From a virus (lineage: Duplodnaviria; Caudoviricetes), in IMG/VR virus record IMGVR_UViG_3300006193_000016, positions 1-40,959 of that record: a DNA stretch of 40,959 nucleotides; one strand, written 5' to 3'. Within the stretch, counting starts at the first letter, position 1. Every line of letters starts with the position of its first letter. The position numbers and the translations under genes were made by a program. The notes below the pieces were generated by a model. The model saw nothing but the letters and a program-made list of their open reading frames with translations. It was not told where the DNA came from and made no database searches. Shown here piece after piece: positions 21,442 through 39,757 of this stretch.

Positions 21442-22386
21442 ATGCAAAATATAAAATTACTACAGTTGCTGGAATCGGTATTAGGTAAAGGTAAATCTAC
21501 ATCTGGTAATAACATTGCATTCTTCTCTCCATTTACTTCACATTATAAACCTAAATTAGAAATTGATATTAATACAACATCAGAAGGCCAAAATGCTTGG
21601 CACTGTTGGATATCTGATAAAAAAGGAAGAAGTATAAACAGTTTATTTAAACAAATGAACTTAGGCAAACAATATTTTGAACAGTTATCTCGTATAATTC
21701 AATCAGCAAAATATAAAACCTTTGATACTGACACTACTCCAGTTGAAACAATATCATTGCCCGAAGAATATATTCCATTATGGAAACCTAAAATGACTCC
21801 TGACTTTCGTAATGCAATGTCATATTTAAAACGACGAGGAGTAACAATATTTGATATATTAAAATATCGAATTGGATATTGTGAACGTGGCGCTTATAAT
21901 GGCAAGATAGTTATTCCTAGTTATGATTGCAACGGCCAATTAAATTATTTTGTAAGTAGAGCATTTTATAATGCAGATAAATATAAACACAAGAATCCTA
22001 AAGTTAGCAAAGACATCATTGGATTTGATTTAACAATTAATTGGGCGGAACCAATAATATTATGCGAAGGGGCATTTGATGCAATTGCAATTAAACGAAA
22101 TGCAATACCATTATTTGGTAAAATTATACAACCACAATTACAGAAAAAACTTATTGAAAATAGAGTCAAGGACATTTATATATGTTTAGATGCGGATGCA
22201 ATACGTAATGCGTTAAGTATAGCAGAAAAATTTATGGGTGAAGGATTAAATGTATATTTTATAGAATTAAAAGATCAAGACGCATCCGATTTAGGATTTC
22301 ATCGTATATCGGAAATTATAGAACAAACGGGAGTAATGACATTTGAACGATTAATGCAACTCCGAATGGGTATTATATGGAAATAA
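21442..22386 (+). CDS. dnaG: DNA primase (DnaG-type, TOPRIM)
   Basis: YLKRRGV, IVIPSYD..G.LNYFVSR, CEGAFDA, CLDADA, DASD. Confidence 0.9.
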   Translation: MQNIKLLQLLESVLGKGKSTSGNNIAFFSPFTSHYKPKLEIDINTTSEGQNAWHCWISDKKGRSINSLFKQMNLGKQYFEQLSRIIQSAKYKTFDTDTTPVETISLPEEYIPLWKPKMTPDFRNAMSYLKRRGVTIFDILKYRIGYCERGAYNGKIVIPSYDCNGQLNYFVSRAFYNADKYKHKNPKVSKDIIGFDLTINWAEPIILCEGAFDAIAIKRNAIPLFGKIIQPQLQKKLIENRVKDIYICLDADAIRNALSIAEKFMGEGLNVYFIELKDQDASDLGFHRISEIIEQTGVMTFERLMQLRMGIIWK

Positions 22387-25300
22387 AACAAATACAAAGT
22401 AAGATACAACAAGCAGATCGTATCTATCATATATCAGACGTACATATTCGTACATTGAAACGACATAAAGAATACCGAGATGTTTTTCAAAACATGTTTG
22501 CATATATTAATCAATCTAAAACAGCAAACAGTATAGCAGTAGTTACTGGAGATATTGTTCATAGTAAATTGGATATGTCCCCCGAATTGATTAGAATGCT
22601 TACTGATTTCTTTCGTGGATTTAATATTCCTACAATTGTTATTCTTGGTAATCATGACATGAATTTAAACAATTTATATCGTGAAGATGCATTGTCTCCG
22701 GTATTGGATATGATTGCTAACGACAATATTGTTTTTATTAAAGACAACGGCGTATTTGATTTTGCTGGATTAACATGGAACCATATGGCGGTTGATGTAG
22801 AGCCTACTCAATATGTAAAAGGCAAAGACATTGTTACTGATAAAATAAAAATTGCATTACACCATGGAGCCGTTCATAGTGCAAAAACAGATATAGGATA
22901 TGAAATTTCCAATGAACATGTTACTACAGAATTATTTGCCGGACATGACATGACTCTATTAGGAGATATACATAAACCAGCACAATTCTTAACTGATACG
23001 ATTGCATACCCTGGATCTTTAATACAACAAAATCATGGTGAAGCATTAGACCATGGTATACTTGTCTGGGACGTAAAAACACAAACTGCTGAATTTGTAG
23101 AAATACACAATGATTATGGTTATGTGACAATCGAAACCGAAGGAGCTCAAATTGTTAAGTCTCCACATCGTATGCCTGATAAACCTAGAATACGAATTAA
23201 ATTTAACGAAACCAGTGCCTCCGATATGAAACGATTGGTTACTATGATTCGTAAAAAATACAATGTCCAAGACATTACTATACAACGAACTATATCCGCA
23301 CAAAATAATGTAGAGTCAAGTGCAATTACAATTGGCAATGTTCGAGACGTTGAATATCAAAATACTTTGTTAACTGAATTTATTAACACTAAATTTCCAC
23401 AAGCAACCACAAATGAATTAGACGCAATACGACACATTAACCGATCTATCAATTCTAAACTTCCTGCAGTAGAATCAGTTAGACATATAACATGGCATCC
23501 GGTATCATTTGAATTTGATAACATGTTTTCATATGGAGAAGATAATCGTGTAGACTTCAATAAAATGAATGATGTCTGTGGTTTATTCGCAGCAAATACA
23601 TCTGGTAAATCTAGTTTATTAGACGCAATAACATATACTATATTTGATAAATGTAGTAAGACCTCCAAAGCCCATGAAGTTTTAAACAACAAGAAATCGG
23701 CATTTCGTGGAGTATTTAAATTTAAAATGAATGATACCATTTATACAATTGAACGAGTAGGCACTAAGAAAAAAGACAATCATGTAAAAGTAGACGTTAA
23801 TTTTTATACTGAAACAGAAAATTTAAACGGTGATGAACGAAGTGACACAAACAATAGTATACGTCGTTATTTAGGAACATACAATGACTTTATATTAACT
23901 GCATTTTCACTTCAAGCAGATAATAATAATTTTATAGAAAAGTCACAACGTGAAAGAAAAGACTTATTATCACAATTTTTAGATATAACTGTATTTGAAC
24001 AACTATATCATTTAGCAACTGACGAAATAAAAGAAACTGCAGGACGACTCAAAGCATTTAAAAAAACTGATTTTGCAGAAACTATAACGAGTGCAGACGC
24101 AATTATACAAAACAATGAAAAATTAATTGGCAATACAAATAAAACTGAATCAGATAAACAAATTGAAAGAAACCAATTACAAGATTCTATAATAGAATTA
24201 ATTGAAACAAAGAAACCTACAAGTTATGACGGTGACGGTATTGAGTCTTTACGAGAAACTGAAATTGACTTAACTGGCAAAATAGAAACATTACAAACAA
24301 CAATTGAAGAAACAGAACAAACAATATTGCAATATCAAAGTAAAATTAATATAATTGAAACTGCATTAAAGGTACAAAATTATGATGTTGTAGATCTAAA
24401 AGACAAAGTACAACAATTAACAACCGCAGAATTTGTTCTTAAAGATCTTAAAGAAGAACAAAAAAAACAACAAGGAATAGTAAATGATAAGCAAAAGAAG
24501 ATTGAACATCTTGAGACGCACAAACATGACCCGGATTGTGAATACTGTGTGTCTAACGTTTTCGTACAAGACGCAATACAAGCCAAGAACGAGATTAATC
24601 AAGATAGAAAAATATTAAAATCTAAAGATAAAAATATTGAATATAAAAACGATGAAATACGCGAATTAATAAAACATGAAATGCGTCTTGATGAATTTAA
24701 TCAATCTAATGATAATATTGATTTATATAAAAATAAAATAGAGCGCAACGAACTACAACTTCAAATTCATGAAAATGATTTACAAACTAAAGAAACCGAA
24801 CTAGAAAATAACATAGAACGACAAGACTTATTTAAAAGAAATGAATCTGCAATAATATGGAATGTAGATGTTGATAAATTAATTAGTGAATGTAAAGGTA
24901 AAATTGATACAATTACCGGTCAGATAAAAACACTGCAAGATCAAATAAAAACTAATCATGGAGAAATACAAGTTGCAAAAACTAAACGTAAAACTGCATT
25001 AGAACAATTAGAAACATATCAGCAATTAGAAATAGAATATAAAGCATATGAATATTATTTAAAATCAGTTAAACGGGATGGTATTCCATATGAATTAATA
25101 TCCAAGGCAATTCCTAAAATTGAATCTGAAATAAACAATGTGTTAAATCAAGTAGTAGATTTTAATATGGTTATAAATACAGATGGTAAAAATATTAATG
25201 GATATATCATATATGATCAAGACAATTTTTGGCCGTTAGAATTAACAAGTGGTATGGAACGATTTATATCTAGTTTAGCAATTCGTATAGCACTTATCAA

Positions 25301-25520
25301 TGTATCAGCATTGCCACGTCCTAATTTCATAGCAATAGATGAGGGATGGGGTAGTTTAGATGCCGAACACATATCATCAGTCGCAAATTTATTTGATTAT
25401 TTCCGAACCAAATTTGATTTTTCAATTATTATATCACACGTAGATACAATGCGTGATATGGTAGACAATTTAATCGAAGTAAATAAAATAAACGGATTTA
25501 GCCAGATTTCCCATGTTTGA
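22377..25520 (+). CDS. Fused SbcD/Mre11 nuclease and SbcC/Rad50 ATPase (gp47-gp46-like)
   Basis: SDVH, GDIVH, GNHD, GDIH; Walker A NTSGKSS; coiled coil with CEYC hook; SGMERF; IDEGWGSLD; ISH. Confidence 0.93.
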   Translation: MEIKQIQSKIQQADRIYHISDVHIRTLKRHKEYRDVFQNMFAYINQSKTANSIAVVTGDIVHSKLDMSPELIRMLTDFFRGFNIPTIVILGNHDMNLNNLYREDALSPVLDMIANDNIVFIKDNGVFDFAGLTWNHMAVDVEPTQYVKGKDIVTDKIKIALHHGAVHSAKTDIGYEISNEHVTTELFAGHDMTLLGDIHKPAQFLTDTIAYPGSLIQQNHGEALDHGILVWDVKTQTAEFVEIHNDYGYVTIETEGAQIVKSPHRMPDKPRIRIKFNETSASDMKRLVTMIRKKYNVQDITIQRTISAQNNVESSAITIGNVRDVEYQNTLLTEFINTKFPQATTNELDAIRHINRSINSKLPAVESVRHITWHPVSFEFDNMFSYGEDNRVDFNKMNDVCGLFAANTSGKSSLLDAITYTIFDKCSKTSKAHEVLNNKKSAFRGVFKFKMNDTIYTIERVGTKKKDNHVKVDVNFYTETENLNGDERSDTNNSIRRYLGTYNDFILTAFSLQADNNNFIEKSQRERKDLLSQFLDITVFEQLYHLATDEIKETAGRLKAFKKTDFAETITSADAIIQNNEKLIGNTNKTESDKQIERNQLQDSIIELIETKKPTSYDGDGIESLRETEIDLTGKIETLQTTIEETEQTILQYQSKINIIETALKVQNYDVVDLKDKVQQLTTAEFVLKDLKEEQKKQQGIVNDKQKKIEHLETHKHDPDCEYCVSNVFVQDAIQAKNEINQDRKILKSKDKNIEYKNDEIRELIKHEMRLDEFNQSNDNIDLYKNKIERNELQLQIHENDLQTKETELENNIERQDLFKRNESAIIWNVDVDKLISECKGKIDTITGQIKTLQDQIKTNHGEIQVAKTKRKTALEQLETYQQLEIEYKAYEYYLKSVKRDGIPYELISKAIPKIESEINNVLNQVVDFNMVINTDGKNINGYIIYDQDNFWPLELTSGMERFISSLAIRIALINVSALPRPNFIAIDEGWGSLDAEHISSVANLFDYFRTKFDFSIIISHVDTMRDMVDNLIEVNKINGFSQISHV

Positions 25521-25546: not shown

Positions 25547-28258
25547 ATGGAACGCAAAGATGTAGTTTATAAAGGTTTAGAATTTATTCCAGTTTTTTAT
25601 GAAGATAATTCTTTAACATCACCGGACTATTTTCAAATATCAGAATTTCCTATACGACTCACAGCAGGAAAAAATTTATTTAAACTTCGTGGCCATCCTA
25701 CCAATTTACGTGTAGGCGGCGGATTGGGTATCGAAGTTTTAGATTATAACGGCGATCCTATATATACCGAAGTAGTAGATTTTATCGATGAAGATAAAAG
25801 TCGTGTTATTGCAATTTATATTTACGATGATACATCACCTGGTGATTGTACTATAACGTTAGTAGCAGAAGCATCGAATATACAAGGTACACCTACTCCG
25901 ACAGATTGGCAAAATAAAGTTAATACCCGTTGGAAACGAACTGTGCCTGTAAACCCAATGGTAGCAAATGTTTCAGAAATAATATTTGAGAAATTACCAA
26001 CGGTAACCGTAGCAGAACAAATTGGTGTTCAATTAGATCGGCAGTATGCAACTACACAATTTCCTACATATAATACCGGTACCATAAGATTCTTTTCATT
26101 TAATGGGCAACCAGCAATTGAATTAACAGGCGGTACATTTATTACTGATATGAAAACTGGGACTGTAACAGTAGCGTCCCCCGTAAATCCTTCGCCTACG
26201 CCGGCTTACCCGGTTGTTACAACGCCTTACGTGTCTACGGTAAGCAAGATATTAACTCCAACTACGGCTTTATTAGATAAAGAGTATACGGTGTATAGTA
26301 GCGAAAGTATATTTCCACATACATTTAATGCATTTGACAATAGTTCATATTCATTAACATATGAAGCAACACCAACATATGTTGAAACTGAAAACTCACA
26401 ATCATTTGCATATATACAAATTGAAGGATTAGAACCAGCAACTGGAGATGTTAGTCGAACAAAAGTTTATACTAATAATAAAGGAACTGTTGGTACTTGG
26501 GAATTAGTTAACGATGTAGAATTAGAAGAAACAGAAATATTAGTTCCAAGCACATCTTCATTGCGGCCTGATGTTAGCATAGGAGAATTAAAATCACAAA
26601 CTACAATTGACACATATTGGGAAGGTCATGTATATACTGGAAATATTGAAACTACAGCACCGTTAACTGCATCGAGTGTAACTGAATTAGATGCCGCTGT
26701 AAAAATTAGCAGTGGTGTAGATATTAGTCCTAATAATTATGTTGTAACATTTCAAAACAAAGATGCATACAACGGAGTGTTTATAAAAGACTCAGCATAT
26801 AAAGTTACATTTGATGCATATGGAATAAAACAATCTTCAGATGATTTTGCAGACCCAGTTATTGCTGTATATATGTCAGGAAGTGCTTTTGATTATGATA
26901 CAACTGATTTGTTCAATCAAGACCTACCAAAACAGTTAGGAAAACGTGTTGGTGAACTTCGGGTATCTGGCGAATCACAAATATTTGACAATCAAACATT
27001 TAGTTTTGATACAGACGCAACTGGCCATGGTAGCCTAATATTTGTAATAGAATCAGGACAATGGCAATTAGCAGACATACACGTAACAACAGATAATGAT
27101 GTCGGATATACTCCTAATTATACCAGAATAAAAACATTTATAGAAACAACACATAAAATAGACAATCAGATATCGTTCAAAGTAGAATATTATAATGTCG
27201 ATGGTGTTGCTAGCAAACAAATAACATATGTATATGACAAAGATTGGCTAGGTGGTAACCGTTATGTAGATGGTGATTTTTCCATGCTTACCGGATCTTT
27301 GTACATCGCTGACTCTTTGAATAGCGGTATAGCTTTAACAGGTAATGCCAGTACTGGATTTGTTAGATCATTGGGATATGATGGATTCGAATCAGGGTTC
27401 CCAGGGTTCTTGTTATGGAGTGGATCGGCACTAGCCGGACAAAATACTAAAGGTGGAGTTGCATATAGTGGCGTAGGATTAGAAATGTATGCCAATACTG
27501 CAAGTTATTTTAGATATGCAACCAATCCATCAGAAATAGATATTCGAACCGATAAATTCTTTTTTGGTAATCCTAGCTCGTCTTATATAAGTGGTAGTAA
27601 TGGATTGATAGAAATTTCATCTAGTAATTTTATATTAACAGCAGAAGGAGATATTACAGCATCTAGCTTTATTGCAGTTCAAGGCGGAAACACATTGTTT
27701 GATACTAACAATGAATTTGTAGATGGGCAAAACATCGGCCGAATAGTTTATTTTGATCGCGATGAATATACATTTACTGGTAATTTAGAAACATCACCAC
27801 AAACTGCATCACTATTTGAAACATTTATATTACCAGGCGAAACTAAATTGCAATTTTCATATACAACTGAATATGATAATAACGACGCTTCAACTGCCGA
27901 GGTACGAGGATATTTTTATATACAATCGTCAAGTATAAGTGCATCAAATTCTGCAGGTAATAATTATTATGATTCATGGAGTAATCCACACCTATTGAAT
28001 ACAAATTTTAAAACTTTAATTTCAAGTGTAGCATCAATCGGAAATCCTCCAGAAGGAGTTAGTAATACAATAGATATAACTGGGGCTAATTTAGAATTAG
28101 GTAACAATCAAGGTCGCTATGTTCGTGTTAGTTTAATTATAACAACAAATACTGGAGGCGGCGCTGGAAGTAGTGTGTTTAAACTGAAAGGCCAAGTTTG
28201 GAGAACGAGTAGATTAGTCGGAGGGGCTACAAGTCCACCGGCAAATATAGTAAGATAA
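25547..28258 (+). CDS. Large beta-rich virion/tail protein
   Basis: About 900 aa, Thr/Ser/Gly-rich, with fibre-like YISGSNGLIEISSSNF. ATG25547 preferred over TTG25541. Confidence 0.65.
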   Translation: MERKDVVYKGLEFIPVFYEDNSLTSPDYFQISEFPIRLTAGKNLFKLRGHPTNLRVGGGLGIEVLDYNGDPIYTEVVDFIDEDKSRVIAIYIYDDTSPGDCTITLVAEASNIQGTPTPTDWQNKVNTRWKRTVPVNPMVANVSEIIFEKLPTVTVAEQIGVQLDRQYATTQFPTYNTGTIRFFSFNGQPAIELTGGTFITDMKTGTVTVASPVNPSPTPAYPVVTTPYVSTVSKILTPTTALLDKEYTVYSSESIFPHTFNAFDNSSYSLTYEATPTYVETENSQSFAYIQIEGLEPATGDVSRTKVYTNNKGTVGTWELVNDVELEETEILVPSTSSLRPDVSIGELKSQTTIDTYWEGHVYTGNIETTAPLTASSVTELDAAVKISSGVDISPNNYVVTFQNKDAYNGVFIKDSAYKVTFDAYGIKQSSDDFADPVIAVYMSGSAFDYDTTDLFNQDLPKQLGKRVGELRVSGESQIFDNQTFSFDTDATGHGSLIFVIESGQWQLADIHVTTDNDVGYTPNYTRIKTFIETTHKIDNQISFKVEYYNVDGVASKQITYVYDKDWLGGNRYVDGDFSMLTGSLYIADSLNSGIALTGNASTGFVRSLGYDGFESGFPGFLLWSGSALAGQNTKGGVAYSGVGLEMYANTASYFRYATNPSEIDIRTDKFFFGNPSSSYISGSNGLIEISSSNFILTAEGDITASSFIAVQGGNTLFDTNNEFVDGQNIGRIVYFDRDEYTFTGNLETSPQTASLFETFILPGETKLQFSYTTEYDNNDASTAEVRGYFYIQSSSISASNSAGNNYYDSWSNPHLLNTNFKTLISSVASIGNPPEGVSNTIDITGANLELGNNQGRYVRVSLIITTNTGGGAGSSVFKLKGQVWRTSRLVGGATSPPANIVR

Positions 28259-28270
28259 TATTTATATAAA
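28258..28270 (+). promoter_or_regulatory. Class B promoter abutting the start codon
   Basis: ATATTTATATAAA followed directly by ATG. Confidence 0.6.
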
Positions 28271-30748
28271 ATGAAAGAAACTACAGTACTATTTCCAGGC
28301 GGGTTTAAACCAATTACCGGTGCCCATTTAGCATTAGCTCAACGCTATGCAGAATCACCCAATGTAGAACGAGTAATTATGCTCATCGGTCCAAAAGAAC
28401 GAGATAGTGTAAGTCGTGAAGATAGTGATGAAATATTCCGATTAATCAACACCAATCCTAAAATCGAACTTCGGCCAACCGATTTTAATAGTCCAATAAT
28501 GGCCGCATATGAATTCTTATTTGCATTACCGCAAGATGAACAAGGAACATATGCGATGGCTGCATCTCGTAAAGGAGATGATTATGCCCGAACTATGAGT
28601 TTTGGGCCAAATGTAGAAAAATATAAAACTGTCGGAGATAAGAAAGGCCGAAAAATACCACCCGGAGTTGATATTAATCCAATGGAGGTTGATGTTGAAC
28701 CATTAACATATGCAGATGGCCAACCAATATCTGCTAGCACAATTCGACAAGCGATTGTAAACAATGACTATGAAACATTCGCAGCATCATATCCTGGAAC
28801 AAAAGAAGCCATATTAAAAAATATATGGCAAATGTTAAACGGAGTACAAGAAGCAACTTTTAGTAAAGAATGGTGGGGCAATGCATTAGCAGAAGATATA
28901 GAAGAAGTTATTGAAGGATATCAAACTCCAGACTTAGCAAATGCACATACTGCTAAAATGAAAAAATTAAGAAAATATCTAGATGCATCACAAGGTAAAG
29001 AATTTGCATATGATTTTAAGAAATTTAAAAAAACTGTGTTCGGCGTTAAATTAACCGAATCGGTATTACAAGAAAATTATATTACCAGATCAGAGTTATC
29101 ACAAATTGAAGCAGCAGCAGATTCATTCTTTTCACAATATGGTATCGATATAGATATGCAAGGTCAATTTACACATTTCTTTGAACGATTAAATGACCCT
29201 AGAAATGACTCACCTATTAGTATGGATCAGTTGGAAGATATGTTTAGAAAATTAGCTCAAGAACATGGATCTAGAATACAAAGACAAATTGAACTAGAAA
29301 GACCGACAGCAGTAGCATCTGATTTAGAATCTGATATACATATGCCATTTATGTTAAAATGGGACGTTAAAAATAAAACTATAGATTTAATTCCTAGAAC
29401 AATAAAAAAACAACGCAGAGATTGGCGAGTAAATAATCCTAATGATATACATTATAAATTATATGCAGAAGGAATGTTAACAGAAGGAGGAGCAGCCGGC
29501 CACATGAATCACCCATATGACTCTCACGGCTTAACTTTCAATGACATGAAAGAAATAGTCTCTAGAGCATTAGAAGGCCGTCTAGACATGGAACAAGCTG
29601 TTACTGAAAAGACAGACGGTCAAAACATTCAAGTAACATGGAAAAATGGACAACCTGGATTTGCTCGAGGAATGAAAACTAGAAAAGAACCACTTACACC
29701 TGCAGAAATTGTTGCAGAATTTGAAGCAAAATATCAAAAAGCAGTTGAATCAAATGGCGTTAAGGGAGCCGAAGGATATAAATTAGTAGTAAATGCATTC
29801 CGAGCGACTGCTGAAGATTTGACTGCATCATTAAATAAATTATCTGCAGAAACATTGCAACGAGTATTTAAAAATGGTCGTGTATTTGCTAACATGGAAA
29901 TTATATATCCTGCTACAACCAATGTTATTGCTTATGAACAAGCCGTTCTTCAATTTCACAATTTAGTAGAATATGACGAAAACGGCAAAGTAATAGAAAC
30001 TGATGTTACCGGTGGTACTATGCTTCAGAAAATTATACAAGATGCAAATGCACATATGCAAAATACATTTTCATTTATTCCACCCAATAAACTAAAATTA
30101 GGACGCATTGAAGATTTCGAAGATAAACAGTCTGCATTCTTTGCTGAAATAGATAGTTTAAAAAATCAATTCGGATTAAAAGAAACTGATGTTGTTTCCG
30201 AATATCATAAAGCATGGTGGAAAGATGTAATAAGTAAAAAAGCATCACAAATGGATTATGCAATCCCTGAAGATGTATTAGATTTGTTAACATACCGATG
30301 GGCTTTAAATGATAAATCTACTAATATTACTAAAATTAAAAAACTAATAGATAACGAACAATTTTCAGAATGGGTTGCTGCATTCGATAAAAAGGATTTC
30401 AGAGTATTTCAAAAACAAAACATAGAACCATTCGAATCTATATTTTTACGACTTGGCGCGGTAGTTTTGAAAAACATTAAAAATTATTTAGCAGTTTCAC
30501 CCGATACCGCAGTAAAAAAAATTAAACAAGATTTATTAGCATTAATAAAAGAATTACAAACATCAGACAATCCTGCCACGCTTAAAAAATTAGAAACTGA
30601 ACTTAAAAAAATAGAACGCATCGGTGGATTTGATAGTATAGTACCTATAGAAGGTATAGTATTTACTTATGGTGGCAATACTTATAAGTTAACTGGATCA
30701 TTTGCACCAGTAAATCAAATATTAGGAGTGTTAAAATACGCAAGGTAA
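28271..30748 (+). CDS. Multidomain protein: HIGH-family nucleotidyltransferase, possible BECR-like RNase, and RNA-ligase-like nucleotidyltransferase
   Basis: FPGGFKPITGAH and ISASTIR; THFFERLNDPRN; TEKTDGQN...MEII...FHNL...EGIVF...YKL. Confidence 0.7.
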   Translation: MKETTVLFPGGFKPITGAHLALAQRYAESPNVERVIMLIGPKERDSVSREDSDEIFRLINTNPKIELRPTDFNSPIMAAYEFLFALPQDEQGTYAMAASRKGDDYARTMSFGPNVEKYKTVGDKKGRKIPPGVDINPMEVDVEPLTYADGQPISASTIRQAIVNNDYETFAASYPGTKEAILKNIWQMLNGVQEATFSKEWWGNALAEDIEEVIEGYQTPDLANAHTAKMKKLRKYLDASQGKEFAYDFKKFKKTVFGVKLTESVLQENYITRSELSQIEAAADSFFSQYGIDIDMQGQFTHFFERLNDPRNDSPISMDQLEDMFRKLAQEHGSRIQRQIELERPTAVASDLESDIHMPFMLKWDVKNKTIDLIPRTIKKQRRDWRVNNPNDIHYKLYAEGMLTEGGAAGHMNHPYDSHGLTFNDMKEIVSRALEGRLDMEQAVTEKTDGQNIQVTWKNGQPGFARGMKTRKEPLTPAEIVAEFEAKYQKAVESNGVKGAEGYKLVVNAFRATAEDLTASLNKLSAETLQRVFKNGRVFANMEIIYPATTNVIAYEQAVLQFHNLVEYDENGKVIETDVTGGTMLQKIIQDANAHMQNTFSFIPPNKLKLGRIEDFEDKQSAFFAEIDSLKNQFGLKETDVVSEYHKAWWKDVISKKASQMDYAIPEDVLDLLTYRWALNDKSTNITKIKKLIDNEQFSEWVAAFDKKDFRVFQKQNIEPFESIFLRLGAVVLKNIKNYLAVSPDTAVKKIKQDLLALIKELQTSDNPATLKKLETELKKIERIGGFDSIVPIEGIVFTYGGNTYKLTGSFAPVNQILGVLKYAR

Positions 30749-36426: not shown

Positions 36427-36460
36427 ATATTTATTAATAAAAAAACTACTGGCGCCAGTA
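36427..36460 (+). promoter_or_regulatory. Class B promoter plus a 14-bp palindrome touching the ATG
   Basis: ATATTTATTAATAAA; TACTGGCGCCAGTA at 36447-36460. Confidence 0.55.
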
Positions 36461-37311
36461 TGAAAAAATTAAAACATTCTAAATATAAAAACACCGGCAT
36501 AATTTTCGAGATGCTTATAAGAAAATTAACATCGGAAACAATGTCGTCTGACAAAACCGTGACCATTGATATAATTAAAAAATATTTTGGCAAGAATACA
36601 GAGTTAGCCAAAGAACTTCAATTATATAACACGATAATCAAAGAACAATATAAATCAGAAGCCCGGGCATTAGATTATATTAGAACTGTTAGAGAATCAT
36701 ATCAACATCTAAATCAAAGTGTATTAAAACGACAACGGTATAATCTTATTAAAGAGATCTCCGAAAATTTTGTTTTTGAACATGTATCAAAAATACATAT
36801 TAATAATTACAAAGCGTTGGCATCGATATACATGTTATTTGAATATAAAGATTCAGATAATCCTAAACGATTAATGGAATGTAAAAATGTAGTATTAGAA
36901 CATACTCTAGCAATTGAGAAAAACGTTCCCGTACAAGATACCGTTATTGAAACGTTTTCTAAACAAGAAAAAGATATTAGATTATTAACATATAAAATAA
37001 TGATTGATAAATTTAATAATAAGTATTCAGTCTTATCTGAATCACAAAAACAATTGTTAAATAAATATATTACCAATGTTAATGATACTGAAGCATTGCG
37101 AGAATATGTTAGTGATGTTATCCCAACGTTGAAATCCCGGTTAGCTGAACAATCTAAACACATAACAGATAAAGTAACAAAAATTAAAGTACAACGACTT
37201 TCAGAAATGCTTTGTAATGTTGAAACCATGAAACGATTAAATGAATCTCACATTGTATCTTTAATGCGGTACATGGATTTAGTAGACGAATTAAATAGGG
37301 TACATAAATGA
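36460..37311 (+). CDS. Helical head-module hypothetical protein
   Basis: 283-aa ORF between the portal and protease genes. Confidence 0.85.
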   Translation: MKKLKHSKYKNTGIIFEMLIRKLTSETMSSDKTVTIDIIKKYFGKNTELAKELQLYNTIIKEQYKSEARALDYIRTVRESYQHLNQSVLKRQRYNLIKEISENFVFEHVSKIHINNYKALASIYMLFEYKDSDNPKRLMECKNVVLEHTLAIEKNVPVQDTVIETFSKQEKDIRLLTYKIMIDKFNNKYSVLSESQKQLLNKYITNVNDTEALREYVSDVIPTLKSRLAEQSKHITDKVTKIKVQRLSEMLCNVETMKRLNESHIVSLMRYMDLVDELNRVHK

Positions 37312-38177
37312 AATCATTCTTAAAACAAATAGACGAAAATTTTAAACGCCTAGACGAAAAAGATTGGGATGGTGATGGCAATCAAGAATCTGATACTGAC
37401 GAATATATGGGGGTAAAAGATAAAGCCATTAAAAATTCATTGAAAATGGAGGACAGTGATTTCGAATTTAAAACTTGTGATAATTGTTCAGGTAAATTAA
37501 CACCACACGTTAAAGAAGACTGTCAACGATGTGCAAAACATGAATCAGCAAAACCTGATTATTTAGATTTCGATAAAGATGGAGATACCGATGAACCAAT
37601 GAAAGATGCATTAGCAGAAGATGGTGAAATTGTTGAACATACAATTACATTTACTGACGCCGATATGAAATCGTTCCACAAAACGGGTAAAGTAATAAAA
37701 AAAGATCCAGACGGCAAAGAGCATACATATGTATACAAGAATAAAGATATAGACGAAATGTCAACATCTGCAGGAGCTGGGTCATATAACACCCCAAAAG
37801 CTTTTGCCCCAACAACAAACAATAAAAATGCTACTGCCAGTACTGGAATGAATATAGCACCGAAAACATCACTTCATACCGAATATGATCTTGTACAAGA
37901 AGCTATGGATAGTAAATATGAACACCTTATTGAAGGGTATCGTACATTTGCTTTAGGAAAGTCGAATTCAACTCCTAATCAAACTGTTAATTCATCTATT
38001 CGAGAAGTAGCTAAAAAATTAAAAGAAATTGAAGAGACTATTAGATATACAGGACGATTAAAAACCGAATCAGGTATATCACATTCTGGATTTACGGAAG
38101 GAACTAGATCGGCTTTAAATAAAATATCACATAGATTAATAAAAATATCAGAGCGCGTTAGAGCATTAGGAGAGTAG
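37308..38177 (+). CDS. Modular head-associated protein (two DxDxDG loops, CxxC-CxxC)
   Basis: DWDGDGNQESD, DFDKDGDTDE, CDNC...CQRC. Confidence 0.75.
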   Translation: MKSFLKQIDENFKRLDEKDWDGDGNQESDTDEYMGVKDKAIKNSLKMEDSDFEFKTCDNCSGKLTPHVKEDCQRCAKHESAKPDYLDFDKDGDTDEPMKDALAEDGEIVEHTITFTDADMKSFHKTGKVIKKDPDGKEHTYVYKNKDIDEMSTSAGAGSYNTPKAFAPTTNNKNATASTGMNIAPKTSLHTEYDLVQEAMDSKYEHLIEGYRTFALGKSNSTPNQTVNSSIREVAKKLKEIEETIRYTGRLKTESGISHSGFTEGTRSALNKISHRLIKISERVRALGE

Positions 38178-38180
38178 GAT

Positions 38181-38801
38181 ATGTCAAAGCCATTATTAGT
38201 AGAATATATGCAATTTAATCCAATTGGTTCACTTAACGAATCCAATGGTGCAAAATATGGAATACCAGGCGGATTTGTAGTGCAAGGTATATTGCAACGG
38301 TCCGAAGCTAAAAACCACAACGGTAGAGTATATCCTAAAAGTATTTTAATGCGGGAATGTCAACGTTACCAAAAAGAATATATAGATCAAAACCGAGCAC
38401 TCGGCGAATTAGATCATCCAGAGTCTAGTGTTGTTAACTTAAACAATGTATCCCATAATGTTTTAAAAATATGGTGGGAAGGTGATGATTTAAAAGGCGT
38501 AGTACAAGTATTAGATACACCATCGGGTAAAATATTAAAGTCATTGTTTAAGGAAGGTATCACATTAGGAATATCTAGTAGAGGCTTAGGCAGTGTAAAA
38601 GAGCTGCGTAACGAAGGCGTAGTTGAAGTTCAAGATGATTTTGAATTGATTTGTTGGGACTTTGTTAGTAATCCATCGACGCAAGGTGCATTTATGGGAA
38701 TGATGAAAGAATCAGTTAATAAAACAATAACAAATAAATACGGTAATGTAAATGACATAATCACATCGATACTATGTGAAGATGGAAAATGTAGGATATA
38801 A
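38181..38801 (+). CDS. Prohead core protease (T4 gp21-like)
   Basis: NHNGRVYP, GELDHP, VSH, GISSRGLGS, WDFVSNPS. Confidence 0.95.
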   Translation: MSKPLLVEYMQFNPIGSLNESNGAKYGIPGGFVVQGILQRSEAKNHNGRVYPKSILMRECQRYQKEYIDQNRALGELDHPESSVVNLNNVSHNVLKIWWEGDDLKGVVQVLDTPSGKILKSLFKEGITLGISSRGLGSVKELRNEGVVEVQDDFELICWDFVSNPSTQGAFMGMMKESVNKTITNKYGNVNDIITSILCEDGKCRI

Positions 38802-38804
38802 ATT

Positions 38805-39221
38805 ATGATGAAATTTGAAGCAAAAAATTTAAATGCAATACGAGATTTACTCTATGAGCAAAACATAAAAAAAGAAACTGTGTTTGGAGATGAACCAACA
38901 CCATTGACGACTGAACAAAAAAGACAATTTGTAGAAGCATGTAAAACATTTTCACATATGGGTGAATCTGTATATGGATCCGGTAAACTTACCGAGATTG
39001 TAGAACGAATTTCAAGCATAGTAGAAACAGCATCTCAACTTGTAACAGAAGAAGGCGAAATGGTAGACAGCATAAGCGCTACTCGTCAAATGAAAGGAAC
39101 AAAAGAAGCTTTAAAGGAATTTCAAAAGTCTGCAAATGAAGTAATGATCCACGAACGTAGAATGGCAGCAGCATTTGAAGATATCGCAGAAGGTATTCAA
39201 AAATATTTCGACGTAGGATAA
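38805..39221 (+). CDS. Hypothetical head-module protein
   Basis: 138-aa helical ORF. Confidence 0.8.
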   Translation: MMKFEAKNLNAIRDLLYEQNIKKETVFGDEPTPLTTEQKRQFVEACKTFSHMGESVYGSGKLTEIVERISSIVETASQLVTEEGEMVDSISATRQMKGTKEALKEFQKSANEVMIHERRMAAAFEDIAEGIQKYFDVG

Positions 39222-39259: not shown

Positions 39260-39757
39260 ATGATAATGAGTAAGTTTAAAAAATTGTATCGAGACTTTTT
39301 TAGTTTAAAAGAAGCTTCTGCAGAACAACAAGCTGACTATAATGTTGAATTAGAAAAAACTAAAGAACTAATGCAACAAGTAAGTGATACAGCAAAAGAC
39401 GCTGGTTTAACAGAAACTGAACTAGACGAAGCTCAATTAGTAAATAACCTAACAGATTATAATGGACATGTTATATATCAATTACGTGACCCACAAGAAT
39501 CTAATGCCGTAGCCAAAGACATTCAACGATGGACTACTAAAAAAGGATTTACTATCATTGCTCACAAAAAATCAAAAACAGGACGCACCGGATATTTTTA
39601 TTTCCGCATAGGAGAAGACCCAGGCAGCGAATCACAAAAGATTCAAGGCTATTTTGCACAACTTCCAGAATTAACTAAGTTTGCATTTAAAAAACCAGGA
39701 GCATCTGCACCAGCTCCACAAATGGCACCACGCAGAAAACAATTTAGAAAAATTTAA
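39260..39757 (+). CDS. Hypothetical protein (start 39260 or 39266)
   Basis: 165-aa ORF upstream of bS21. Confidence 0.8.
   Translation: MIMSKFKKLYRDFFSLKEASAEQQADYNVELEKTKELMQQVSDTAKDAGLTETELDEAQLVNNLTDYNGHVIYQLRDPQESNAVAKDIQRWTTKKGFTIIAHKKSKTGRTGYFYFRIGEDPGSESQKIQGYFAQLPELTKFAFKKPGASAPAPQMAPRRKQFRKI

What the first reader, a model, noticed from the sequence alone, without database searches (positions are those of the whole stretch)
28271..30748. Tripartite nucleotidyltransferase / RNase-like / RNA-ligase-like polyprotein under a late-type promoter
Seen: aa 1-190 carry HIGH-superfamily motifs (GGFKPITGAH, ISASTIR). Aa ~269-398 form a compact domain with THFFERLNDPRN...PF...LIPRTI. Aa ~406-825 carry ligase motifs in order (TEKTDGQN, MEII, FHNL, EGIVF, YKL). 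Each domain boundary has hydrophobic-x-Glu sites (GVQE/ALAE/VIE; LTESVLQE; GMLTE). Established: KxDG/EGxV/K define the ATP-dependent ligase/capping superfamily, and T4 gp21 cleaves after [I/L]-x-E. Inference: a virion-packaged precursor is cut into three injected enzymes. They could form an RNA cut-and-reseal or tRNA-repair module, or counter NAD/nucleotide depletion. The RNase call on the middle domain is the weakest part.
Basis: partly seen in the sequence, partly recalled or inferred. Interest (0 to 1): 0.85.

Follow-up and report, generated by a model that had tools for sequence, protein, structure and literature searches.

The report
Protease-cut phage head enzyme polyprotein
A T4-like phage encodes one 825-residue protein that strings together a nucleotide-transferring domain, a predicted RNA-cutting domain and a predicted RNA-joining domain of an unstudied family, with head-protease cut motifs at the joints, so it is likely packed into the virus head, cut into separate enzymes and injected to repair and trim RNA at the start of infection.

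Summary
The ORF and every motif are real. D1 is a HIGH nucleotidyltransferase (nearest solved kin NadD/NadM). D2 folds most like T4 RegB (Z 7.4; H302/R306 over H48/R52, second His missing). D3 folds like RNA ligases (Rnl5 Z 9.3), has no OB domain and is a likely sister of DUF6267, common in T4-like cyanophages. The polyprotein idea passes real tests: across 150 distant relatives, [LI]xE marks shuffling breakpoints (156 of 403 starts against 52 expected; controls flat), 44 of 44 readable RNase-less junctions end in [LI]xE, 107 of 142 relatives begin with a propeptide-like [LI]xE, and D1 homologues appear in three cyanophage virion proteomes. Against: this clade has no N-terminal propeptide, 31 of 135 relatives lack Glu before the ligase, one DUF6267 ligase was missing from its virion, and nothing is shown by experiment. 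Corrections: the upstream motif is TATTTATA, not T4's TATAAATA; cut-and-reseal is unlikely (optional RNase, no end-healing domain); no Nampt partner for NAD salvage in 5 relatives. The constant core is transferase plus ligase. This scan noted the family before on other DNA (e1-5348817). New variant of a known kind; interest 0.6.

The parts
28258..28266 (+). ATATTTATA, conserved upstream motif of structural genes of this phage group; candidate late promoter (reverse complement of T4 TATAAATA), possibly giving a leaderless mRNA
   Evidence: function inferred
28271..30748 (+). 825-aa polyprotein gene (P0001)
28271..28846 (+). D1, aa 1-192: HIGH-superfamily nucleotidyltransferase (GGFKPITGAH, SASTIR); substrate unknown, nearest solved kin NadD/NadM/archaeal NMNAT, then PPAT
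28847..29074 (+). Linker, aa 193-268, with VQE194, LAE208, IEE212, VIE215, LTE263, LQE268; aa 257-268 score best against a profile of relatives' N-terminal propeptides (candidate internal targeting element)
29075..29464 (+). D2, aa 269-398: RegB-like (BECR/RelE fold) predicted endoribonuclease, H302 and R306 invariant; optional, swapped as a unit
29477..29485 (+). LTE405, predicted prohead-protease site that would free the ligase domain at G406
29486..30745 (+). D3, aa 406-825: RNA-ligase-fold covalent nucleotidyltransferase; invariant N-terminal GHMxH, motifs I (K447), Ia (R466), III (E543), IIIa (F562-H563), IV (E794), V (K806, second Lys replaced by Thr); large helical insert; no OB domain; likely sister of DUF6267
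38181..38801 (+). S77 (T4 gp21-type) prohead protease, the inferred processing enzyme; in the same gene run as terminase (32952) and portal (34583)

Best explanation
The gene encodes a three-domain protein with [LI]xE motifs at its joints that is likely a head-core precursor: likely made late, likely built into the prohead, predicted to be cut by the phage's gp21-type protease into a HIGH nucleotidyltransferase, a RegB-like RNase and an RNA-ligase-fold enzyme, and likely ejected with the DNA. The ligase would seal RNA (most likely tRNA or mRNA) broken by host anti-phage RNases before any phage gene is expressed. The transferase, its near-constant partner, would supply an adenylated cofactor for that first-minutes response (most likely NMN + ATP to NAD+). 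The RNase is an optional passenger that would cut mRNA in a RegB-like way to free ribosomes. Shown: domains, folds (by prediction), motif enrichment at shuffling breakpoints, module gain, loss and swap. Inferred: late timing, packaging, cleavage, ejection and all substrates.
For: Folds: D3 model pLDDT 95, the six rows with Z of 8 or more are all RNA ligases, Z 9.3-8.1, DNA ligases 6.9 or less; D2 pLDDT 90, RegB Z 7.4 over 116 residues, then RelE 5.9. Cleavage signature: [LI]xE at 156 of 403 domain starts (null mean 51.7, max 75) and 146 of 493 ends (61.7, max 80), while [LI]xD, [LI]xQ and [AGS]xE stay within the null; 18 of 52 cargo-family boundaries against 3 of 52 for [LI]xD; 44 of 44 readable RNase-less junctions end in [LI]xE; P0001 has 5 [LI]xE in 83 linker residues, none in D1 or D2; head-core proteins of the same loci are enriched 2.2-3.1-fold, portal 0.63. 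107 of 142 relatives start with [LI]xE at residues 5-30 against 22% background; stand-alone RNase homologues begin like T4's IPII/IPIII targeting peptide. T4 gp21 cuts after L/I-x-E (PMC9026906). D1 homologues were found in virion proteomes of S-CREM2, S-SZBM1 and S-SCSM1. Pairing: 107 of 122 long relatives carry the transferase; DUF6267 lies next to or fused with it in cyanophages, in the reverse order. Optional cargo is RNA-repair-rich: CCA-type polymerase 5, P-loop kinase 5, 2H 1, Pol-beta-type 1 of 88 proteins scanned.
Against: No experiment on any D3-bearing phage. All 116 close homologues start directly with D1, without a propeptide. 31 of 135 distant relatives have C, M, A or N in place of E405, so release at that site is not universal. 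Breakpoints are not independent of one another, and primase is also enriched in [LI]xE (1.76). Four [LI]xE sites lie inside D3. The DUF6267 ligase of S-SZBM1 (gp141) is absent from its virion table though gp140 is present, and those authors and others warn of co-purification. RegB's second catalytic His (H68) aligns to R326, the profile match is weak (E 0.1), Z 7.4 is within the range of chance folds, and Foldseek found nothing for D2. Motif V lacks its second lysine. No Nampt in 0 of 5 related genomes; a kinase above cut-off in only 1 of 5; tRNA genes vary from 0 to 22.
Confidence: 0.5

Rival explanations
1. Uncut, non-virion late enzyme: a cytoplasmic multi-domain RNA-repair protein whose xxE motifs are relics or recombination-prone linkers, in this clade at least.
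For: No N-terminal propeptide in 116 of 116 close homologues; 31 of 135 non-Glu boundaries; S-SZBM1 gp141 not in the virion table; in-frame HNH domains tolerated next to the ligase.
Against: E194, E215 and E405 are kept in 114-116 of 116 close homologues although the linker is only 51-70% identical in most of the 19 compared; all 44 deletions leave a site; gp141 itself has no propeptide, so its absence fits the targeting rule; the gene sits 2-10 kb upstream of terminase, portal and protease, in the same order in the related loci that reach those genes.
Confidence: 0.2
2. Transferase and ligase form one new pathway on nucleic-acid ends or proteins: the HIGH domain adds NMN or another unit to an RNA 5' end (or makes the activated donor), and the ligase-fold domain transfers AMP, a cap or an RNA to a target, not repairing tRNA at all.
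For: The pair is far more constant than any healing enzyme (107 of 122) and fused in both orders; D3 has family-specific invariant H411, H414, H563 and lacks the second motif V lysine; no Nampt partner; no link with tRNA gene number. That HIGH adenylyltransferases can cap RNA and that ligases accept pre-adenylated caps is recalled, from no call.
Against: No direct evidence; nearest solved kin of D1 are ordinary NMN/NaMN adenylyltransferases; some phages carry the transferase without an adjacent ligase (S-CREM2, 121Q, Deifobo).
Confidence: 0.15
3. Three-part cut-and-reseal module: the RNase cuts an RNA and the ligase rejoins or edits it.
For: RNase and ligase are adjacent in one chain in 117 of 162 close sequences.
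Against: RegB-type enzymes leave 5'-OH and 2',3'-cyclic phosphate (PMC3014915), which ATP ligases cannot join without a kinase and phosphatase; P0001 has neither. D2 is in 22 of 150 distant relatives, changes state 8 times on a 48-leaf tree and stands alone in phages.
Confidence: 0.07
4. D3 is a DNA nick-sealing ligase delivered with or acting on the phage genome.
For: DUF6267 genes lie near helicase and MazG genes in cyanophages; 3 of 5 related genomes show no other ATP DNA ligase and none an NAD ligase.
Against: No OB domain: the chain ends 19 residues after K806; RNA ligases outrank DNA ligases; 2 of 5 relatives, one complete, carry a normal DNA ligase as well.
Confidence: 0.08

Closest known systems
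Polyvalent proteins of phages (Iyer et al. 2017, PMC5512222; passages read)
   Same: Shuffled multi-domain chains of conflict enzymes (BECR RNase, 2H, ART, ParB-like, Pol-beta transferase, zincin), proposed to be head-packaged and processed into units.
   Different: There the proposed processor is an in-chain MPTase; here the boundaries carry gp21-type [LI]xE sites and the anchor is a HIGH transferase plus a ligase-fold domain. 'RNA ligase' had 0 whole-word hits in that paper's main text; its supplements were not seen.
T4 internal head proteins IPI-III and Alt, processed by gp21 (PMC9026906; passages read)
   Same: L/I-x-E sites, a gp21-type protease nearby, propeptides in relatives, ejected enzymes.
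   Different: T4's mature proteins lose terminal propeptides; here several enzymes would be released from one chain by internal cuts. P0001 lacks an N-terminal targeting peptide.
ATP-dependent RNA ligases: Naegleria Rnl5 (5cot), fungal Trl1, REL1, T4 Rnl2 and Rnl1
   Same: Nucleotidyltransferase fold and motifs I, Ia, III, IIIa, IV, V; no OB domain after motif V.
   Different: 12-16% identity; about 180-aa helical insert between IIIa and IV; invariant GHMxH and FH; single lysine in motif V; no Pfam ligase hit.
DUF6267 (PF19782) and the 'cytidyltransferase/NMNAT' of T4-like cyanophages
   Same: HxxH start, KxDG, EG(F/I)V, KL motifs; next to or fused with the same transferase; Atlas score 0.96; Foldseek E 7e-5 to the S-PM2 protein.
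   Different: No Pfam hit for P0001; profile match weak (E 0.03-0.05); in cyanophages the ligase comes first and often has no propeptide.
T4 RegB endoribonuclease (PMC3014915; passages read)
   Same: Best fold match over the whole domain, extra N-terminal helix included; H48 and R52 positions kept.
   Different: H68 position is Arg; RegB is an early stand-alone gene, this one is a module in a late structural cluster.
Phage NAD salvage (NadV-NadM; NARP2, recalled)
   Same: NMNAT-like HIGH domain.
   Different: No Nampt/NAPRTase in 5 related genomes; no Nudix or kinase fusion.

Membership tests
Covalent nucleotidyltransferase (ATP ligase/capping) superfamily | Fold and motifs I, Ia, III, IIIa, IV in order | tested here: met
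Covalent nucleotidyltransferase (ATP ligase/capping) superfamily | Motif V with two lysines (KxK; recalled for ATP ligases) | tested here: not met
   K806 in 135 of 135, position 808 Thr in 134 of 135
Covalent nucleotidyltransferase (ATP ligase/capping) superfamily | Lysyl-AMP intermediate on K447 | not testable with these tools
   needs an adenylylation assay
DNA ligases and capping enzymes | OB domain after motif V | tested here: not met
   chain ends 19 residues after K806 in one helix
Rnl1, Rnl2, Rnl5 families | Family profile match | tested here: inconclusive
   no Pfam hit for P0001 at E 0.01; one relative PF09414 E 0.009; fold Z 7.8-9.3
DUF6267 (PF19782) | Pfam score above cut-off | tested here: not met
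   no hit
DUF6267 (PF19782) | Common ancestry by structure and features | tested here: inconclusive
   Atlas 0.96, family on 24-28% of cluster members; Foldseek viral E 7e-5; hhalign E 0.034 and 0.052
RegB endoribonucleases | RegB/RelE fold with extra N-terminal helix | tested here: met
   Z 7.4, rmsd 3.8, 116 aligned; PF10715 in 4 of 28 members, best E 4.4e-4
RegB endoribonucleases | Catalytic His48 | tested here: met
   H302 invariant, aligned to H48
RegB endoribonucleases | Catalytic His68 | tested here: not met
   aligned residue is R326, in a weak alignment
RegB endoribonucleases | S1-stimulated cleavage of GGAG | not testable with these tools
   needs an assay
HIGH nucleotidyltransferases | (H/T)xGH and SxS/T motifs, profile match | tested here: met
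   TGAH and SAS; PF01467 in relatives; NadD E 3.6e-5
NMNAT of phage NAD salvage | Nampt/NadV partner in the genome | tested here: not met
   0 of 5 related records, 0 of 2 at least 90% complete; the window's own genome is only 41 kb
NMNAT of phage NAD salvage | NMN + ATP to NAD+ activity | not testable with these tools
   NadD, NadM and PPAT all match weakly
T4-type internal head proteins | N-terminal capsid targeting propeptide | tested here: not met
   absent in 116 of 116 close homologues; propeptide-like start in 107 of 142 distant ones
T4-type internal head proteins | L/I-x-E sites outside folded domains, and a gp21-type protease | tested here: met
T4-type internal head proteins | Presence and processing in the virion | not testable with these tools
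   only D1 homologues have proteomics
Polyvalent proteins | Several shuffled conflict domains in one chain | tested here: met
Polyvalent proteins | In-chain MPTase as processor | tested here: not met
   no peptidase domain in P0001; an HExxH module in 11 relatives, read by motif

The most novel reading that the evidence does not exclude
T4-like phages use the prohead protease as a general polyprotein processor for a shuffled, injected enzyme kit anchored on a new two-enzyme pathway: a HIGH adenylyltransferase and a new ligase family (this clade plus DUF6267, found in 462 phage records) that together cap, activate or join RNA ends, or attach RNA or AMP to host targets, in the first minutes of infection, with a virion-delivered RegB-like RNase as optional cargo.
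Probability: 0.17. Interest if true: 0.85.

Novelty: new variant of a known kind. Interest (0 to 1): 0.6.

Why it matters
It gives a fold and a testable activity to DUF6267, a gene of unknown function in hundreds of T4-like cyanophage records, and ties it to the 'cytidyltransferase' that keeps turning up unexplained in cyanophage virions. It also shows, with statistics, a route to polyvalent proteins that needs no in-chain protease: any domain flanked by [LI]xE can be dropped into a head protein. The family is large (1,746 clusters at 50% identity), so its cargo slots are a ready list of candidate first-minute counter-defence enzymes. A virion-delivered RNA ligase or RegB-like RNase was not found in the papers searched.

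Tried and rejected
Single-sequence searches of P0001 gave nothing in Pfam or the PDB; PHROGs hit only two unnamed families over D2. Foldseek against the PDB gave no match at E 0.001 for D3 and nothing meaningful for D2; the A2 profile found no solved relative; the Atlas search with D2 gave unnamed clusters at 0.86 or less. A search for short stand-alone D2 proteins returned one chimeric fragment. T4's TATAAATA as promoter was rejected (wrong strand). My idea that the FSKEWW...LAE208 segment is an internal targeting peptide was not supported (1.8 bits); aa 257-268 scored instead. Rnl1 search in relatives was uninformative because no control rang. No cellular family: 13 loci among 185,579 species genomes, all bins from mixed taxa, 7 of them with neighbours that match this phage's genes. 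Guesses that S-CREM2 gp6 or gp112 were the ligase were wrong. The PANV1 paper has no proteomics. Paper searches: DUF6267 0 papers, Mel-JY01 0, TATTTATA promoter and phiM12 proteome nothing relevant, off target. A D1-D3 complex prediction was not obtained because the queue was full, so binding of the two domains is open.
Full report
Observation. The window is a T4-like myophage fragment: baseplate genes, endonuclease, primase and a fused SbcD-SbcC lie upstream; terminase (32952), T4-type portal (34583) and an S77 prohead protease (38181) lie downstream. The same gene order holds in the related viral loci that reach these genes (80 loci, many partial). The host is unknown.

Promoter. T4's late consensus TATAAATA is not on the coding strand upstream. 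Its reverse complement TATTTATA lies 4 nt before the ATG. It precedes 10 of 36 window ORFs within 40 nt, against 0.46 expected, and 55 of 63 related copies of this gene, with TATAAATA in 0 of 63. In five related genomes ATATTTATA-N2-20-ATG occurs 18-26 times, always on the coding strand; the reversed control occurs 9-13 times. It goes with structural genes, so 'late' is a fair inference, but it is a different motif and untested. One paper search for it gave nothing relevant.

D1. P0001 alone has no Pfam hit. Relatives match PF01467, and a family profile finds NadD (E 3.6e-5), NadM (1.4e-4), archaeal NMNAT (1.2e-3) and PPAT (0.02) in the PDB. The fold class is safe; the substrate is not.

D2. 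A 28-sequence alignment gave a model at pLDDT 90. Among 48,161 chains the best match is T4 RegB (Z 7.4, rmsd 3.8, 116 aligned), then RelE (5.9, 5.6) and many RelE/ParE/CdiA toxins. Independently, Pfam REGB_T4 matches 4 of 28 members (best E 4.4e-4). A weak profile alignment (E 0.1) puts invariant H302 and R306 on RegB H48 and R52, but R326 on H68; a review names H48 and H68 as catalytic and the products as 5'-OH and cyclic phosphate (PMC3014915, passages). Foldseek found nothing and Z 7.4 is middling. An RNase is likely, not shown.

D3. With 90 sequences the model reaches pLDDT 95. The six chains with Z of 8 or more are RNA ligases (Naegleria Rnl5 9.3, Trl1 8.7, 8.7 and 8.1, REL1 8.4, Rnl2 8.1); DNA ligases score 6.9 or less and a capping enzyme 5.2. 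Foldseek ranks RNA ligases first, at E 0.002. Motifs I, Ia, III, IIIa, IV and the first motif V lysine are 99-100% conserved in 135 distant sequences; family marks are invariant H411 and H414, H563, and Thr where a second motif V lysine is usual. The chain ends 19 residues after K806, leaving no OB domain. D3 is a likely sister of DUF6267: Atlas clusters with PF19782 score 0.96, Foldseek matches the 591-aa S-PM2 'cytidyltransferase' (E 7e-5), and that locus holds DUF6267 followed by the transferase (that the 591-aa entry joins p141 and p142 is my inference). Profile matches are weak (E 0.034, 0.052). DUF6267 homologues occur in 462 phage records; the term gave 0 papers.

Family. D3 finds 1,746 clusters at 50% identity; the best 150 run from 228 to 1,985 aa, with D3 nearly always last. 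Of 122 that are 580 aa or longer, 107 carry the HIGH domain; 22 of 150 carry D2. Pfam scans of 88 proteins (86 of the 150, chosen for length, plus 2 close ones) show cargo: CCA-type polymerase 5, P-loop kinase 5, DUF5661 8, ROS/MucR-like zinc finger 6, and one each of 2H, ART, Pol-beta-type and intein. HAD-like, HExxH, ParB-like, HNH and Ntn-hydrolase-like modules were read by motif. Only one cultured phage has D3 itself, Microcystis phage Mel-JY01 (35.6%, transferase plus ligase, upstream of terminase), and no paper on it was found. The 13 hits in species genomes look like phage contigs in bins.

Test of the cleavage idea. I took internal ends of all-against-all alignments among the 150 as shuffling breakpoints, leaving out D3. 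[LI]xE lies at 156 of 403 starts (null mean 51.7, maximum 75 in 300 draws) and 146 of 493 ends (61.7, 80). [LI]xD (36, 62), [LI]xQ and [AGS]xE (66, 91) stay within the null; [LI]xK ends just exceed it (140 against a maximum of 138), and the reversed motif is also raised (1.9, 1.6), as tandem sites would cause. Breakpoints share ancestry, so I counted by family: 18 of 52 boundaries of 26 cargo families carry [LI]xE in 40% of members or more, against 3 of 52 for [LI]xD (counted; boundaries are rough). [LIV]xE precedes 23 of 27 internal transferase domains (background 23%) and follows 94 of 105 (33%); for D2, 17 of 22 before and 9 of 22 after. Among 162 close sequences 46 were labelled as lacking D2; one (L056) holds a decayed D2 and one junction could not be read; the other 44 junctions are 5-10 aa and all end in [LI]xE. 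The label changes 8 times on a 48-leaf tree, one change being L056. Identity by domain shows whole-module swaps: six relatives are 78-88% identical in D1 and D3 but 53-54% in D2. P0001 has no [LI]xE in D1 or D2, five in 83 linker residues and four in D3. Predicted core proteins and the protease are enriched 2.2-3.1-fold, portal is depleted (0.63), but primase is also raised (1.76). T4 gp21 cuts after L/I-x-E (PMC9026906, passages).

Test of packaging. 107 of 142 Met-starting relatives have [LI]xE at residues 5-30 (background 22%), typically an amphipathic 15-20-mer just ahead of the first domain. Stand-alone D2 proteins of PANV1 and Melnitz, and the DUF6267 proteins of Melnitz and DLP6, begin like T4's IPII/IPIII targeting peptide. 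S-CREM2 gp154, which matches my D1 profile (E 4.7e-10 among 7 proteins), is in its virion table with 3 peptides (PMC10665884, passages and section 18); so are S-SZBM1 gp140 (PMC9146016, passages) and the S-SCSM1 NMNAT (PMC9602691, passages and one supplement part). Two of these papers warn of co-purification. Against: S-SZBM1's DUF6267 gp141 is not in the table, though it has no propeptide; all 116 close homologues of P0001 begin directly with D1. A profile of 40 propeptides scores aa 257-268 of P0001 at 15.5 bits, the next window 5.0, which may be an internal targeting element or just a double site. And 31 of 135 relatives have C, M, A or N in place of E405, 9 of the 18 C/A cases with an HNH-like domain just upstream.

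Function. The RNase is a passenger, and its expected ends cannot be joined by an ATP ligase without healing, so cut-and-reseal is unlikely. In five related genomes (two at least 90% complete) there is no Nampt, no NAD ligase, an ATP DNA ligase in two, a kinase above cut-off in one, and 0-22 tRNA genes. The constant pair is transferase plus ligase, fused here in one order and adjacent or fused in the other order in cyanophages, though some phages have the transferase without a neighbouring ligase. With CCA-type, kinase and 2H cargo in relatives, early RNA repair is the most likely job of the ligase; the role of the transferase (NAD+ supply, or work on RNA ends) is the open point. Whether D1 and D3 bind is untested.

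Known systems. It works like a polyvalent protein (PMC5512222, passages) processed like a T4 internal head protein. Passages of two surveys of jumbo-phage RNA repair and viral NAD systems (PMC7824862, PMC9503650) describe phage ligases, NadM/NadR and head-packaged enzymes but not this pair; their supplements were not seen. PMC12801897, PMC12379486 and PMC9239159 (passages) added nothing. Ten searches of an open-access library found no description; subscription journals were not covered.

Verdict. Observation partly confirmed, interpretation partly supported. Odds: folds 0.9 (D2 as an active RNase 0.65), protease-processed 0.7, virion-delivered 0.6, whole mechanism 0.5. New variant of a known kind; interest 0.6.

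Noticed in passing
window 6048, 8846, 14897, 16895, 19048, 25521, 28259, 30749, 34559, 39240: TATTTATA motif 4-27 nt before structural genes; strictly coding-strand in five related genomes; a candidate late promoter unlike T4's, at times too close to the ATG for a leader.
   Followed up: partly
P0064, L048, L056 and 9 distant relatives: An HNH-like endonuclease domain sits in frame just before the ligase domain, and the boundary Glu is then Cys or Ala; L056 also has a decayed RNase motif.
   Followed up: partly
window 36460-37311, 37308-38177, 38805-39221, 39260-39757: Four unannotated proteins around the protease with 2.4-4.1-fold excess of [LI]xE; likely prohead core proteins (gp67/68/22 analogues).
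   Followed up: partly
window 22377-25520: SbcD-like and SbcC-like (gp47/gp46) domains fused in one 1047-aa protein, conserved in related loci.
   Followed up: no
window 21442-22386: Primase shows an unexplained excess of [LI]xE (1.76 in the family, 2.1 here).
   Followed up: no
P0184 aa ~440: Ntn-hydrolase-like cargo whose first Cys directly follows TSE, as if a cut after Glu exposed the nucleophile (read by motif; 3 relatives).
   Followed up: no
P0164 aa 737-878: An intein inside the ligase domain of a relative.
   Followed up: no
L191:3526-5305 (S-PM2 p141-p142): DUF6267 is split over two ORFs in this record, the second fused to the transferase; UniProt's 591-aa entry seems to be the joined form.
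   Followed up: partly
L028: The polyprotein is split into a 370-aa transferase-RNase ORF and a 414-aa ligase ORF; natural split or assembly error not checked.
   Followed up: no
L175:3837-5081 and L163:6013-6726 (S-CREM2 gp6, gp156): Virion proteins: gp6, annotated SAM hydrolase, starts with a targeting-like peptide; gp156 is a Pol-beta-type nucleotidyltransferase next to the HIGH transferase.
   Followed up: no
L160:2540-4348 (phiM12 gp458): 602-aa acidic chain ending in the RegB-like domain after a hydrophobic-x-E; its N-terminal part looks by eye like a decayed HIGH domain.
   Followed up: no
reps, cargo family 0 (50 of 150; e.g. P0164 319-454): The commonest optional module (~135 aa) has no Pfam match; a good next target.
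   Followed up: no
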